NCBI RefSeq assembly: GCF_028641065.1
Contig: NC_073389.1
Span: 27,900,001 to 27,964,000 of the forward strand
DNA length: 64,000 bases
Reading direction: 5' to 3'
Origin: Leucoraja erinacea
Lineage: Eukaryota
Shown: piece after piece, positions 49,289 through 54,916 of the stretch
Layout: each line of letters begins with the position of its first letter
How positions within the stretch are numbered: position 1 is the stretch's first letter
Translations under genes and position numbers: made by a program
The notes under the pieces: model-generated
The model's input: the letters and a program-made list of their open reading frames with translations, nothing else
What the model was told of the DNA's origin: nothing
Database searches by the model: none

Positions 49289-49554
49289 GTAATTTATCAT
49301 AGAAATATAGAATGATGACAGGTGGCTATTTGGCCCATTATGTCCAGTGCAGCTCATACAGAATATGATTCCAACTACACACTGTGCTAAGAGATTTTCC
49401 CAACACTGTTCTTAATTAATGGAATATGATAATATAGCACATGGAACATAGAACGGTACAGTCCACAATGTCCATGCCAAACATGATGTCAAAATCAATT
49501 AATCTCCTCTGCCCACACATGATCCATATCCCTGCAAATCAATTTACCTATCTT

Positions 49555-50005
49555 GGGGCAACACAATGATAGTGTTAGAGTTGCTGCCTTACAGCATCAG
49601 AGACCCGGGTTCGATCCTGATTACAGGTGCTGTCTGTACGGAGTTTGTTCGTTCTCCCTGTGTTTTTTTCTGGATGCTCTGGTTTCTTCCCACTCCAAAG
49701 ACGTACAGGTTTGTAGGTTAATTGGCTTCGGTAAAATTGTAAATTTTCTGACCTTGAGTGCTGTCTGTGCGACGTTTGCATATGCTCCCTGTGATCATGT
49801 GGGTTTCCTCCGGGTGCTCCGGTTTCCTCCCACATTCCTAAGGCATGCGGGTTTGTGGATTAATTGTCTTCTGTAAATTGCCCCTCATGTGTAGATGGGA
49901 TAATGTGAAATTGGGATAACATAGAACTGGTGTAGGGGGTGATTGGTGGTCGGCGCGGACTCGGTGAGCCATAGAGCCTGTTTCCACGCTGCATCTCAAA
50001 AACTA
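49555..50005 (+). mobile_element. two fused HE1-like SINEs
   Basis: Core repeated twice, single tail. Confidence 0.8.
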
Positions 50006-51054
50006 AATTATGGCCTTTAAAGATTTATGGAGAACATGAAAGGATTTAGACATTTAAAAGGTAATTGAACACCTGTTTCTTCCATGTGTGAGTGACTGAC
50101 TTGCTGACTTTGCGATGCTCTCTGGAAATAACCCAACACCCCTTCCTTAGAGCCGCAGTGAAGGGTCAGCTGCATTATGTGACCAGGGCCCTTAGAGTTG
50201 GGTTTGAAAATCACAATCATCTGGCCGGGAGATAAGGGAACTATTATAGAGCTACAAACACTATAGAATGGAGTCCAATGATATCCGGCTGCAAAATAAT
50301 TAATATATTTTATATTACTTCTGAATTTGTCTCATTGTATCTGAACTTGTCCCGTTGGTGCATAAAAAATGACTTAATCTGAGAGTCAAAAGTTTATTTT
50401 ATCATTCTGTACCACCAAGGCATGATGAATTCTAACCAAATATCTGTTTTTTATGTTTAAAAATAAATGTGAAATATATTAAATTTTATCTTGGATCAAT
50501 GTTGGTATGCGAGTTCAGACACATCTTGTAACTTTGGCACACTTTTATAGAACATAGAACAGTGCAGAAACAGGCGCCTCGGCCCACAATGTCCGTGCCA
50601 AACAGGGTGTGAAGTTAAAATAAACTCCTCTGCTTGCATCTGATCCAACCCCTTCATTCCCTGCACATCCATGCTTCTATCTAAAAGTATCTTAAACATC
50701 ACTATCTTATCTGCCTCCACCAACACCCCTGGTAGTATTCCAGATACCCACCACTCTGAAAAGAAAAACGCTTGCCCCATACATCTCCTTTAAACTTTGC
50801 TCCTCTCACCTTCAAGCTATGCCCCCTAGTCTTTGACAACCTTGGGAGAGGGGGGGGGGAGATTCTGCCTGTCTGCCCTATCTGTGCTTTCCATAATTGT
50901 ATATACTCTTATCAGGTCTACCCTCAACTTCCAACACTCCAAATTCGTCCGACTTCTCCATATAACTAAGGTACTCATCCAAGAAGCATTCTGGTAAATC
51001 TCTTCTGCTCCCTCTCCAAAGCCCCCACATGTTTCCTATAATGGGGCGAACAGA

Positions 51055-52147
51055 CCAGTGGTGAATCTGTGGAATCCATCACCACAGAAGGCCGTGGAGA
51101 CCAAGTCAATGAATATTTTTTAATGCAGAGATTGATATATTTTTGATTTATATAAATCCTTTCATGTTCTCCATAAATCTTTAAAGGCCATCATTTAGTT
51201 TTTTCGATGCAGCGTGGAAACAGGTGCTTTGGCTCACCGAGTCTGCGCCGACCACCAATCACCCCCTACACTAGTTTCATGTTATCCCATTTTCACATTA
51301 TCCCATCTACACATGAGGGGCAATTTACGGAAGACAATTAATCTACAAACCCGCATGCCTTAGGAATGTGGGAGAAAACCAGAGCACCCGGAGGAAACCC
51401 ACATGATCACAGGGAGCATATGCAAACGTCACACAGACACAGCAATTTTACCGAAGCCAATTAACCTACAAATCTGTACGTCTTTGGATAGGGAAGAAAC
51501 CAGAGCATCCGGAAAAAAAGACAGGGAGAACAAACAAACTCAAACTAGGGACAATCTGGAGTCCAATTAACCTATAAACCTGCATGTCTTTGGGGTGTGG
51601 GAGGAAACTGGCAAATGGAGAATGTGCAAACATTACACAGATAGCACCAAAGGAAAGGATTGAACTGAGGTGTCTAGCGCTGTGAGGCATCGGCCCTACA
51701 AGCCACACAAATATCAATGTCCAATTTATTTCCTGTCATTCCCGTTATGCTAATTGATATTTCTTTCCCTTCACGCTATGTCACTAAATTATGAGGCACA
51801 CACTGTGCCTAAGACAACTCCTTTGTTCTAACTAAAAGACACACTGAGAACAGCACTCTGCCCACTCGGCATGTCTTTCATCCAAGGCATTTGAAAGATT
51901 CTGGAAATGAATCTGTTGTTATTACCTTGTGCTCCAATGGGGGGGAAAATAATCAAGAGGGCAAATGTTATTCTGAAATTGGTGAAGAGCTCCTGAAAAA
52001 TTATTATCTTTAATTTGAGTTTCCTCCAGGAATAGAAGATACATTTCATCGGCAGCTGGCATTTAAAAAGGGTAGAGTTACCATAATGTTCTACCCTTTG
52101 ACATAAACCATGTTATTCTGGTTTAGCTGCCTTAACAACTCTTGGTT
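51055..52147. other. composite locally templated insertion (three segments)
   Basis: 51057-51152 = 52542-52637 (direct); 51153-51541 = inverted 49641-50048; 51541-52141 = inverted 53921-54521; flanked by a 26-bp imperfect duplication. Confidence 0.85.
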
Positions 52148-52204
52148 ATGCTTCCTATTATGGGGCAAAGAGAACTACACACAATACTCCAAATGCAGCC
52201 TAAC

Positions 52205-52768
52205 CTTTATAATCACAGATCAGACCGCATTTGAAGTATTGTGAGCAGTGTTGTGCCCAATATCTGAGGAAGGATGTGCTGGCATTGGAACGGGTTCAGA
52301 GGTTAAGAGAATGATCCCAGGAATGATTCATTTAACATATGATAAGCGTTTACGGCACTGGGCCTATACTCGCTGGAACTAAAAGGATGAGGGGGGGATT
52401 TCATTGAAATGTACCGACTAGTGAAAGGCCTGGATAGTGGATGGTTCCACTAGTGGGAGAGTCTAGGACCAGAAGTCATACACACAGAATAAATACACAT
52501 ACCTTTGGAATGGAGATGGGATAGAATTTATTTAGTCAGAGAGTGGTGAATATGTGGAATCCATCGCCACAGAAGGCTGTGGAGACCAAGACAATGGATA
52601 TTTTTTAATGCGGAGATTGATATATTTTTGATTTATAAGGGTGTTAGGGGTTATGTGGAAAAGGTAGGAGAATAGAGTTGCGAGGGAAAGAGAGATCAGC
52701 CATGATTGAATGGGGGAATAGACTTGATGCGCCGAATGACCTAATTTTGCTCCTATAACTTATGAACA
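52205..52768 (+). mobile_element. degraded CR1 3' fragment
   Basis: Degraded CR1 ORF2 C-terminus (RPHL..YC..Q..; FSQRVVN.WN) and 3' tail. Confidence 0.75.
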
Positions 52769-54664
52769 AACCAAAGTCCTATGTATCTATATACACGAAC
52801 ATTATACTTCCTCACATTTTCCGTGTTTAAGGTGCTAGATAAATGCAAGTTACAGCAGGTGACAGATGTGCAGCGCTTGCAGTTGGCAGTTCTGTTAATG
52901 TTTTTTTGGGGGAGATAGTGCCCCAGGGCAGTTCATAGAGGTGTGCAATTTAAAACCTGTACTTCAGTTTCACATTTCTCTTGGTCATCAAAAAATGAAA
53001 CCATTCTTTGTCGAGTACAAAACCCAGTAGCGTGGGATTCAATAACAGCTACTTTTGATACTCTTTCGCCTGTTTGTTCTGCAACACCGTGGCATCAATC
53101 ACTGTACATTCTCTCAACCACCCAAGACAAAGTGACTTGAAAGTGTACCCGATATTGAGCCATACACTGCATGAAAATTGTGTATTCATCAGCATTTCCA
53201 TTTTATTCATCATAAGATCATAAGACACAGGAACAGAATTAGGCCATTTGGCCCATTGAGTCTGCTCTGCTATTCAGTCATGACTGATCTATTTTTCGCT
53301 CTCAACCACATTCTCCTGTCTTCTCCCCGTAACCTTTGACACCTTTACTAATCAAAAACCTGTCAATCTCCGCTTTTAAAATACCCAATAACGTTGACTT
53401 GCTTCCGCCGCCATCTGTGGCAATGAATTCCACAGATTCACAACCTTCTGGCTAAACAAAATACATCATTTTATTCTGAGGCTACGCCCTCTGGTTCTAG
53501 ACTCTTATTTGCATCATATTATCTTGGTTTAGATTTATTATTTTCACGTGTACAGTGAAAAGCTTTGTTTTGCATGCTACCCAATCAAACCAGATAATAG
53601 CATGCATAAATGCACTCAAGCCGCACTCAAGTGCAATAGGTAGAGTGAAATGAAAGAGAGTGCAGAATATAAATACTAAGTTTATTTTGGGAACATGAGC
53701 CTTGTTACCAATTTGGATTTTGTTTAAATAAAGGCATTTTTGTGCGGCTGCTGGGAGAGAAAGCCAAAAAGACTGCGTCTGAAACGAAAGCAGAAAATGC
53801 TAGAAATAAATAGGATGTCTCGTTAAACAGTGTAAGAAAATTGACGATGCCATTTCTGTGGGGATAATCCTTCTTCACAATTAGAAAGGGTGTACTTATA
53901 ATTGTATCCCAGTTTCTTGTGAGTTGTTAAGGCAGCTAAACCAGAATAACGTGGTTTATGTCAAAGGGTAGAACATTATGGTAACTCTACACTTTTTAAA
54001 TGCCAGCTGCCGATGAAATGTATCTTCTATTCCTGGAGGAAACTCAAATTAAAGATAATAATTTTTCAGGAGCTCTTTACCAATTTCAGAATAACATTTG
54101 CCTTCTTGATTATTTTTCCCCCCATTGGAGCACAAGGTAATAACTACAGATTCATTTCCAGAATCTTTCAAATGCCTTGGATGAAAGACATGCCGAGGAG
54201 GCAGAGTGCTGTTCTCAGTGTGTCTTTTAGTTAGAACAAAGGAGTCGTCTTAGGCACAGTGTGTGCCTCATAATTTAGTGACATAGAGTGAAGGGAAAGA
54301 AATATCAACTAGCATAACGAGAATGACAGGAAATAAATAGGTGATTGATATTTGTGTGGCTTGTAGAGCCACTGCCTCACAGCGCTGGAGACCTCAGTTC
54401 AATCCTTTCCTTTGGTGCTATCTGTGTAAAGTTTGCACGTTCTCCATGTGCCAGTTTTCTCCCACATCCCAAAGACATGCAGGTTTGTAGGTTAATTGGC
54501 CTCTAGATTGCCCCAAGTATGTAGGGTGTGGATGAGAGAGTGGGATAACATTGAGGTAGTGTGAACGGGTGGACTTGGTAAACTGAAGGCTGTGTTTCCA
54601 TGCTGTATTTCTAAACTAAACTAAAAGCAAATTTCTGATCTTTTTTGGTATTTGTTTTCTGCAG

Positions 54665-54916
54665 GTTCAACCCTTCATCAAGCAATTTGTTCAAACGATG
54701 CTCTGTTTTTACTTCATATTCTTTTATCCCTTTCCAATTTTTGGGGTCCTACTTATTGCCATTTTACTTACACGCTACAAGACTCTAAACGCGCAGAAAA
54801 AGTCTGATGCAAAGAATGGTGTTCCGCTACTCTGGATTAAAGAGCCAGCGGTAACTTATTCCCCAACAAGTCTTGAGCCACCGGATTTCAGAATAGGACC
54901 AGGAAGCATCGCGTAA
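54665..54916 (+). CDS. IGSF3: IGSF3 last coding exon: TM helix + cytoplasmic tail (apparent +1 T at 54706-54710)
   Basis: ttttctgcag acceptor; GSTLHQAICSNDALF, then (frame +1) YFIFFYPFPIFGVLLIAILL...KNGVPLLWIKEP..YSPTSLEPP...GSIA*, the diagnostic IGSF3 C-terminus; stop TAA 54914-54916. Confidence 0.92.
   Translation, partial: VQPFIKQFVQTMLCFYFIFFYPFPIFGVLLIAILLTRYKTLNAQKKSDAKNGVPLLWIKEPAVTYSPTSLEPPDFRIGPGSIA

What the first reader, a model, noticed from the sequence alone, without database searches (positions are those of the whole stretch)
51029..52173. A ~1.1 kb insertion stitched from three neighbouring templates (template-switch chain)
Seen: a CR1 fragment is interrupted between two copies of a 26-bp sequence (51029-51054 and 52148-52173; 4 mismatches). 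The insert is built entirely from nearby DNA. Segment 1 is a direct copy of 52542-52637 (joined at a caga microhomology). Segment 2 is an inverted copy of 49641-50048 (two fused SINEs plus unique flank, ~20 bp deleted). Segment 3 is an inverted copy of 53921-54521 (mostly unique DNA); this explains the twin 73-aa ORFs at 51828-52049(-) and 54013-54234(+). Established: chains of locally templated segments with microhomology are the signature of FoSTeS/MMBIR or polymerase theta-mediated repair. Inference: this is an old, fixed germline example, since the copies have visibly diverged.
Basis: partly seen in the sequence, partly recalled or inferred. Interest (0 to 1): 0.72.

Follow-up and report, generated by a model that had tools for sequence, protein, structure and literature searches.

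The report
Old three-piece copying scar in skate
A 1.1-kb patch in an intron of a skate's IGSF3 gene is made of copies of three nearby stretches and is missing in a related species; it was likely pasted in one old DNA-copying accident, probably begun at a predicted hairpin, and is a known kind of repair scar with no sign of a function.

Summary
Real, inherited, and of a known kind. 51055-52147 is three abutting copies of local DNA (6/96, 22/389, 31/601 mismatches; homogeneity p=0.88) between two copies of a 26-mer, in the last intron of an IGSF3-like gene. Repeats run through the four source ends that lie in repeats and through none of the four insert junctions, so the insert is the copy. One contig of a relative (organism F) joins 51051 to 52171: the empty site, with one 26-mer. 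Two other organisms carry junctions. Best reading: one template-switch event (local n-jump or cycle; complex MMB-TI). Microhomology is weaker than claimed (4 and 3 nt, both imperfect; 1; none), and the polymerase cannot be named. Three additions, each tentative: a predicted minus-strand hairpin starts at 52174, the base after the 26-mer; several sites suggest the copy predates F's split, so F lacks it by lineage sorting; the insert carries about twice the source's substitutions in its repeat parts (24:11, p=0.04, method-sensitive). Six smaller candidates in 1.8 Mb make the class common here. The scan has noted such scars before on other DNA. The twin ORFs look spurious.

The parts
51029..51054 (+).
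   Evidence: empty-site contig matches it to 51051 (X18 record 9)
51055..51056 (.). Junction J1: CAGA (51051-54) also precedes the S1 source, then CC in place of the source's G
   Evidence: bridged by X15 record 11
51057..51152 (+). S1: direct copy of 52542-52637
   Evidence: 6/96
51153..51541 (-). S2: inverted copy of 49641-50048 with a net 19-bp loss near 51440; J2 has TAA shared plus an extra TA
   Evidence: 22/389
51541..52141 (-). S3: inverted copy of 53921-54521 (163 bp repeat-derived, 438 bp unique); J3 shares 1 nt
   Evidence: 31/601
52142..52147 (.). Junction J4: 6-nt filler of untraced origin
   Evidence: only 8-mer matches nearby, four of them within 46-58 kb; bridged by X4 record 28
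52148..52173 (+). Right copy of the 26-mer; the host element resumes after it
52174..52249 (-). Predicted core hairpin (52174-52206 with 52217-52249) between two head-to-head CR1-like fragments; candidate stall site
49641..50048 (+). Template of S2
   Evidence: 334 paralogue HSPs cross 49641 against 0 across J3
52542..52637 (+). Template of S1
   Evidence: 76 and 105 paralogue HSPs cross its ends against 0 across J1 and J2
53921..54521 (+). Template of S3
   Evidence: 109 paralogue HSPs cross 54521; contigs of F, C and D run on 361 letters past the 53921 boundary
49289..54664 (+). Host: last intron (GT..AG, 5376 bp) of an IGSF3-like gene

Best explanation
The 1,119 extra bases are copies of three neighbouring stretches plus a doubled 26-bp host segment, likely made in one germline template-switching event during replication or break repair, in which a nascent strand probably stalled at a predicted hairpin, copied three templates in turn and rejoined 26 bases upstream of where it left. 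Shown: the composition, which side is the copy, the empty site in organism F, junctions in organisms B and E. Inferred path, read left to right in pre-insertion coordinates: leave after the 26-mer; jump about 370 nt forward and copy 96 nt in the same direction; switch strand and copy about 410 nt from 1.0-1.4 kb upstream, with a short internal skip; jump and copy 601 nt from 1.75-2.35 kb downstream; add 6 nt; resume at the start of the 26-mer. The mirror path on the other strand gives the same product; the hairpin is the only hint for left to right. Processive synthesis (BIR/MMBIR- or FoSTeS-like) is favoured over polymerase theta alone because two patches are 400-600 nt long (inference from recalled knowledge); polymerase theta may have made the joins. 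The copy is old and probably predates the split from F, which then lacks it through lineage sorting (about 0.6), exact loss between the 26-mers (0.2) or a later origin (0.2). No function is indicated.
For: Abutting segments with 0-6 nt between them and equal divergence (59/1086 pooled, p=0.88). Polarity: 76, 105, 334 and 109 paralogue HSPs cross the four source ends that lie in repeats, 0 cross any of the four insert junctions; the two source ends in unique DNA are uninformative. Empty site: X18 record 9, letters 74-274 on 50850-51051 and letters 1-73 on 52171-52243. F, C and D contigs stop fitting at 52141 and at or near 51153, at single-copy depth. X15 record 11 bridges J1 and X4 record 28 bridges J4 with 31 or more letters on each side; X4 record 27 shares at least 11 of 16 insert-specific letters. 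Hairpin: -25.6 kcal/mol, z -5.3, 0 of 200 shuffles; among the best 1.7-2.8% of random 133-mers; core stem opens at 52174 in all four windows folded. Local-specific duplicated segments: 194 within 10 kb against 19 in a distant decoy. Same architecture in print: PMC7025897, PMC8421209.
Against: Microhomology is weak: J3 1 nt, J4 none, J1 and J2 imperfect. Divergence is uneven inside S3 (p=0.003) and the 26-mers differ at 4/26 (p=0.05 against the pooled rate). No contig spans the whole insert; J2 and J3 are not bridged by any listed piece, only indirectly by variant rows at 51170 and 51521; X1 crosses J1 by only 26 letters. Hairpin: found post hoc on today's sequence; 6 of 31 counted core pairs are G-T; the plus strand folds less well (-19.1, z -2.5); the arms are only 64-69% alike overall, beyond the 25% heterology that suppressed instability in yeast (PMC10164571, abstract); only 1 of 6 sibling sites has a flank in the top 5%. 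Age before F: two sites disagree (51700, 51959).
Confidence: 0.82

Rival explanations
1. Two or three separate insertions or inverted duplications hit the same spot at different times.
For: The repeat part of S3 is more diverged than its unique part (16/163 against 15/438); the 26-mers are 15% apart. Single-template local copies are common in this genome (66 local-specific pairs with score 25 or more in 1.8 Mb).
Against: Segment-level divergences agree (p=0.88). Only one flanking duplication exists and no segment interrupts another. Source-side change is even along the insert (11/648 against 5-7/438, p 0.6-1.0). F lacks the whole unit at once.
Confidence: 0.07
2. RNA-templated insertion: a LINE reverse transcriptase or polymerase theta copied pieces of the IGSF3 intron RNA with template jumps, and the 26-mer is a target-site duplication.
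For: All three templates lie in the same intron; a flanking duplication is present; LINE fragments are abundant here.
Against: No poly(A) at either end and no TTTT/AA-type site at either 26-mer edge (L1 endonuclease motif recalled). Pieces are in both orientations and not in transcript order, so twin priming alone does not give it. Sibling candidates show 3-4 nt microhomology at 4 of 5 junctions displayed.
Confidence: 0.05
3. Iterative polymerase theta end joining alone (synthesis-dependent MMEJ at a staggered break) made all patches.
For: Short imperfect microhomologies, a filler and a dinucleotide slip at the joins; a possible excess of insert-side substitutions (24:11). PMC7407515 (passages) describes germline theta scars with small templated insertions.
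Against: Patches of 389 and 601 nt taken 1-2.4 kb from the site are long for theta (recalled; the passages read say only 'small'). The product would look the same as MMBIR, so this is a variant of the best explanation rather than a different event.
Confidence: 0.05
4. Assembly artefact (mis-joined haplotypes or chimeric reads).
For: No listed contig spans the insert; some contigs are collapsed between the two copies (X1 record 5). The assembly has a probable 1-bp error 2.5 kb away.
Against: Copies differ by 5.4%. X1 matches 51642-51805 with 0 differences, and other organisms bridge J1 and J4. F shows a clean empty site.
Confidence: 0.01

Closest known systems
Complex MMB-TI germline insertions in humans (PMC8421209; passages and part 1 of 2 of section 10 read)
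   Same: Insert built from three local templates in mixed orientation, inherited, no gross rearrangement; the paper reports 33 and 26 complex events in two people and up to five templates.
   Different: Here 1.1 kb with templates up to 2.4 kb away (the yeast events cited there were within 100 bp); 5% diverged and shared between species; 138 of 155 human junctions had microhomology, here one of four has none.
Local n-jumps and cycles of templated insertions in cancer genomes (PMC7025897; passages and section 10 read)
   Same: Copy-and-paste string that returns to the host and re-replicates a host segment; local templates; inverted and direct junctions; copy gain without loss.
   Different: Those are somatic; the paper's 'cycles' typically use templates on other chromosomes, so by its terms this is a local four-junction jump with a cycle-like return.
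MMBIR/FoSTeS complex rearrangements, e.g. PLP1 DUP-TRP/INV-DUP (PMC4352052; passages read)
   Same: Template switches with microhomology, templated inserts, raised point mutation near junctions.
   Different: Those are far larger and disease-causing; their rate was about 2 mutations in 15 kb, roughly 100 times below the about 2% insert-side excess hinted here.
Short-range template switches fixed in great apes (PMC7954356; abstract read)
   Same: Inherited between species; secondary structure reported at the initial switch site.
   Different: Those appear as short mutation clusters, not a kb-scale three-template gain.
Polymerase theta templated insertions / SD-MMEJ (PMC7407515; passages read)
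   Same: Local templates, short microhomology, apparently untemplated filler, germline action.
   Different: Described as small; the patch lengths here argue for a more processive polymerase (inference).

Membership tests
Local n-jump / cycle of templated insertions (PMC7025897) | String of two or more copied templates in one derivative sequence | tested here: met
   Three abutting segments
Local n-jump / cycle of templated insertions (PMC7025897) | Templates remain intact (copy gain, not cut and paste) | tested here: met
   Sources present, repeats continuous across their ends
Local n-jump / cycle of templated insertions (PMC7025897) | Return to host with re-replication of a host segment | tested here: met
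   Two 26-mers here, one in the empty site of F
Local n-jump / cycle of templated insertions (PMC7025897) | Mix of inverted and direct junctions, tightly clustered | tested here: met
   One direct and two inverted templates within 4.9 kb
Local n-jump / cycle of templated insertions (PMC7025897) | Single event, all junctions in phase | tested here: inconclusive
   Equal divergence p=0.88; all absent in F; no read spans the insert
Complex MMB-TI / MMBIR / FoSTeS | Microhomology or microhomeology at the switch points | tested here: inconclusive
   4 and 3 nt imperfect, 1 nt, none plus filler; chance about 0.04
Complex MMB-TI / MMBIR / FoSTeS | Raised substitution rate in the newly made DNA | tested here: inconclusive
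   24:11 by alignment (p=0.04), 28:9 or 20:13 by query, about even in the unique part
Complex MMB-TI / MMBIR / FoSTeS | Origin at a stalled or broken fork; dependence on BIR factors | not testable with these tools
   Only a predicted hairpin at the departure point
Polymerase theta templated insertion (TMEJ) | Short inserts from templates close to the break | tested here: not met
   96-601 nt from 0.4-2.4 kb away; the size norm is recalled, PMC7407515 says 'small'
Polymerase theta templated insertion (TMEJ) | POLQ dependence | not testable with these tools
   Needs genetics
LINE-mediated (TPRT) insertion | Poly(A) or simple-repeat tail and endonuclease consensus at the duplication edge | tested here: not met
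   Neither at 51029 nor at 52173 (motif recalled)
LINE-mediated (TPRT) insertion | Pieces colinear with one transcript, at most one 5' inversion | tested here: not met
   Order S1, S2, S3 is not transcript order on either strand
Protein-coding gene (twin 73-aa ORFs) | Family match or conserved frame | tested here: not met
   No Pfam hit at E 0.1; organism D has a 1-base insertion at 51945, inside the frame

The most novel reading that the evidence does not exclude
Old germline template-switch scars in skates number in the thousands and keep a readable record of their birth: a burst of about 2% substitutions in the copied patches, far above rates measured for human MMBIR, and a stall at a retroposon-made hairpin. 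They would then be a fossil assay of which low-fidelity polymerase works in the vertebrate germline, and clean presence/absence markers of lineage sorting among skate species.
Probability: 0.12. Interest if true: 0.6.

Novelty: new member of a known kind. Interest (0 to 1): 0.27.

Why it matters
It is a clean, outgroup-verified inherited example of a mutation class described mostly from cancer and human disease, in a cartilaginous fish. By itself it changes nothing: the class is known, has been noted before in this scan, and appears common in this genome (6 candidates in 1.8 Mb, 3.3 per Mb, 95% interval 1.2-7.3; none validated by an empty site). It would matter more if the insert-side mutation excess or the hairpin start held across many events, or if the two long inverted arms changed splicing or editing of the IGSF3 last intron.

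Tried and rejected
Twin ORFs as genes: no Pfam hit, frame broken in D. Distant repeats as the templates: weaker than local sources. A fourth template for the J4 filler: only 8-mer matches, four within 46-58 kb. Selection for RNA pairing of the arms: 18 of 30 transitions keep a G-U pair, p=0.36, and divergence is not reduced. Tandem double substitutions as a polymerase signature: 7 adjacent pairs among 59 against 3.2 expected (p=0.03), but only 3 among 27 insert-derived sites (p=0.09), and some pairs are mixed or late. Strand-coordinated (kataegis-like) spectrum: none seen among 27 sites. First polarisation (27:9:9) was biased by using the source as query; the insert as query gave 20:13 (p=0.30); from the alignment version (80 paralogues) I dropped three columns (51440-42) that came from my unit boundary at the S2 gap, leaving 24 insert, 11 source, 3 both, 6 unresolved of 44. 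Hairpins as a general trigger: 1 of 6 sibling sites. Flanking duplications at sibling inserts: none above 8 bp among the 9 other intervals tested before the script stopped with an error (10 of 13 intervals run, the target included); C5 has its 62-bp duplication. Organism G (X20) had no cover over most of S3 and allows no conclusion; C and D show source-only contigs but no listed empty-site contig. Allele reading from contigs of organisms with both copies is unsafe where contigs collapse (X1 record 5, X15 record 12). PDB search gave only generic Ig hits. PMC7615360 (passages) bears little on this. Paper searches listed no report of such events in cartilaginous fish; none of the 12 listed of 922 papers held 'templated insertion'; this is not proof of absence. 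No supplements were read; those of PMC8421209 hold event sizes that bear on how unusual 1.1 kb is.

Full report
Observation. Self-comparison returns the three segments at the stated coordinates. Global alignments give 6/96, 22/389 (plus 19 gap columns) and 31/601 mismatches, pooled 59/1086 = 5.4%, homogeneous between segments (chi-square p=0.88); the 26-mers differ at 4/26, p=0.05 against the pooled rate. The window lies on contig C13 of a 2.19-Gb genome; the unique part of S3 has only two copies among the 41 matches listed (40 of 2310 candidates scored), and S2's best distant match is 80% over part of its length against 90% locally. The host is the last intron (49289-54664) of an Ig V-set gene; the upstream exon is 99% identical to a record named IGSF3-like of Leucoraja erinacea on a contig of the same length as C13.

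Which side is the copy. In a 1.864-Mb sample (the window plus 180 records of 10 kb in nine blocks, two beside the window and seven picked arbitrarily), paralogue HSPs cross the source ends 52541, 52637, 49641 and 54521 in 76, 105, 334 and 109 cases, and cross J1, J2, J3 and J4 in 0 cases; the ends at 50048 and 53921 lie in unique DNA and give no count.

Relatives. Of 24 runs listed, 20 hold part of the stretch, under seven organism labels; I laid 7 of them (X18 twice). X18 (organism F) has one 283-letter contig whose letters 74-274 lie on 50850-51051 and letters 1-73 on 52171-52243: the empty site with exactly one 26-mer. The S3-source contigs of F, C and D fit up to 52141 and then run on for 361 letters, the length of the source flank 53560-53920, at single-copy depth. 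X15 (E) bridges J1 and X4 (B) bridges J4 with 31 or more letters on each side; X1 (A, possibly the assembled sample, so not independent) crosses J1 by 26 letters and matches 51642-51805 without difference. J2 and J3 are not bridged by any listed piece; the tables are cut. C and D show no listed empty-site contig; G is uninformative.

Junctions. J1: CAGA shared, then CC for G. J2: TAA shared, with one extra TA. J3: one base. J4: none, with a 6-nt filler. A simulation with 2-nt slack gives 0.04 for a best of 4 and a second of 3 among four junctions. This is weak support for microhomology. There is no poly(A) tail, no L1-type nick motif (recalled) and no transcript order, which argues against an RNA route.

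Age. One search lists 40 of 47 variant rows. Of the 19 insert/source differences in 51674-52141, F carries the source letter while C and D carry the insert letter at 51723, 51984 and 52071; 51720 and 51945 point the same way less cleanly. Against this, both window copies share a letter at 51700 that F, C and D lack, and F shares the insert letter at 51959. Five sites are not listed. F differs from the window by 54/1522 around the insertion but 15/1130 at 53560-54900 (p=0.0003), whereas E differs by 21/1605 and 10/564 (numbers read). Insert and source differ more than F and the source do (19/468 against 11/827, p=0.003). The simplest reading is that the copy was made before the F and window versions of the S3 source coalesced, and that F carries an old empty haplotype. 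Exact loss between the 26-mers, or a later origin on a divergent allele, are not excluded. This rests on one sample per organism and on contigs.

Insert-side excess. Polarising the 44 differences in repeat-derived parts with paralogues gave 28:9 (insert:source) with the source as query and 20:13 with the insert as query. A joint alignment gave 24:11, with 3 where both differ and 6 unresolved, after I dropped three boundary columns (p=0.04). In the unique part, polarised with C and D, the counts are about even (6-8 against 5-7), and three of the insert-side changes are absent from B's insert copy, so they are late. Source-side change is even along the insert (11/648 against 5-7/438); insert-side change is not (24/648 against 6-7/438, p 0.02-0.04). 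B shares at least 11 of 16 insert-specific letters in 51619-51900, so most are old and not assembly errors. Totals over all parts give p=0.04 to 0.11. This is a hint of error-prone synthesis, found post hoc, and larger than the 2 mutations in 15 kb of PMC4352052 (passages).

Candidate trigger. The host fragment meets a second CR1-like fragment head to head near 52210 (CR1 label recalled). The minus strand of 52148-52280 folds at -25.6 kcal/mol (z -5.3), the plus strand at -19.1. The core stem pairs 52174-52206 with 52217-52249 in all four windows folded, 25 of 31 counted pairs Watson-Crick; 52174 is the first base after the 26-mer, where plus-strand synthesis would have left. The fold is among the best 1.7-2.8% of random 133-mers. 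Against: post hoc, arms only 64-69% alike (PMC10164571, abstract, found heterology beyond 25% suppressive), and only 1 of 6 sibling sites has such a flank.

How common. At 60 bp and 88% or more, the sample holds 28 local pairs, and the only chain of different templates is this one; the other chain rows are tandem duplications. A more sensitive run kept 201 of 4488 local HSPs as local-specific and gave 8 chain rows: two for this event, two for a tandem array, four other two-template candidates. Inspection of 11 candidates added C5:40011793-40012058, a perfect 62-bp host duplication around a 142-bp insert with pieces from 8 kb away, and C3:30055310-478. A decoy against distant records kept 19 of 3787 segments, against 194 locally outside the window, and gave one chain with templates 50 kb away. 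Four of five sibling junctions displayed have 3-4 nt exact microhomology, though they were picked by overlap. Six candidates in 1.8 Mb is 3.3 per Mb (1.2-7.3); none is validated. This one is the largest seen.

Consequence. In pre-mRNA the S2 and S3 arms could pair with their sources (duplexes of -699 and -1056 kcal/mol), which would bring 49641 (352 nt from the donor) next to 54521 (143 nt from the acceptor). Nothing shows selection for this (18 of 30 transitions G-U-compatible, p=0.36), and no RNA was examined.

Comparison and verdict. It works like a complex MMB-TI (PMC8421209; passages and part 1 of 2 of section 10) and meets the structural definition of a local n-jump with a cycle-like return (PMC7025897; passages and section 10). 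The polymerase cannot be named from sequence. Earlier notes of this scan describe like scars in other genomes; I did not test them. New member of a known kind; interest 0.27.

Noticed in passing
window 54705-54710: An extra T in a T run puts the last IGSF3 exon out of frame. All four runs show one gap in their piece over 54597-54900 (place of the gap not listed), relatives' proteins read through, and the record is named LOW QUALITY: probably an assembly error.
   Followed up: partly
L087 (G000:C5:40011793-40012058): Young sibling event: perfect 62-bp host duplication around a 142-bp insert with inverted pieces of 27, 15 and 62 bp from about 8 kb away and an 18-bp piece from the right flank.
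   Followed up: partly
L112 (C10:20064530-642), L024 (C13:27881143-345), L033 (C13:28037104-337), L015 (C13:27792268-330), L071 (C3:30055310-478): Further two-template local insertion candidates, three with 3-4 nt microhomology at the displayed junction.
   Followed up: partly
L036 (G000:C13:28066564-28066727): 84-bp direct plus 71-bp inverted pieces matching two spots 50 kb away that lie within 250 bp of each other.
   Followed up: no
window 50540-52770: Two CR1-like 3' fragments lie head to head with nearly the same 5' truncation point, 64-69% alike; that start point is not common among paralogues.
   Followed up: partly
window 49641-54521: The two inverted arms could fold the intron RNA so that its donor and acceptor ends come within about 500 unpaired nt; possible editing substrate.
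   Followed up: partly
window 53560-54900 against 49961-53264: Divergence from organism F drops from 3.5% to 1.3% across about 300 bp, while organism E stays near 1.3-1.8%: gene-tree discordance among these species.
   Followed up: partly
L116 (G000:C10:20100590-20105338): 208-bp direct repeats 99.5% alike, 4.3 kb apart, with TG..CA ends and an outer duplication: LTR-element-like. Observed only.
   Followed up: no
L041-L042 (G000:C13:28123360-28130454): Tandem array of about three 2.37-kb units, 98-99.8% alike.
   Followed up: no
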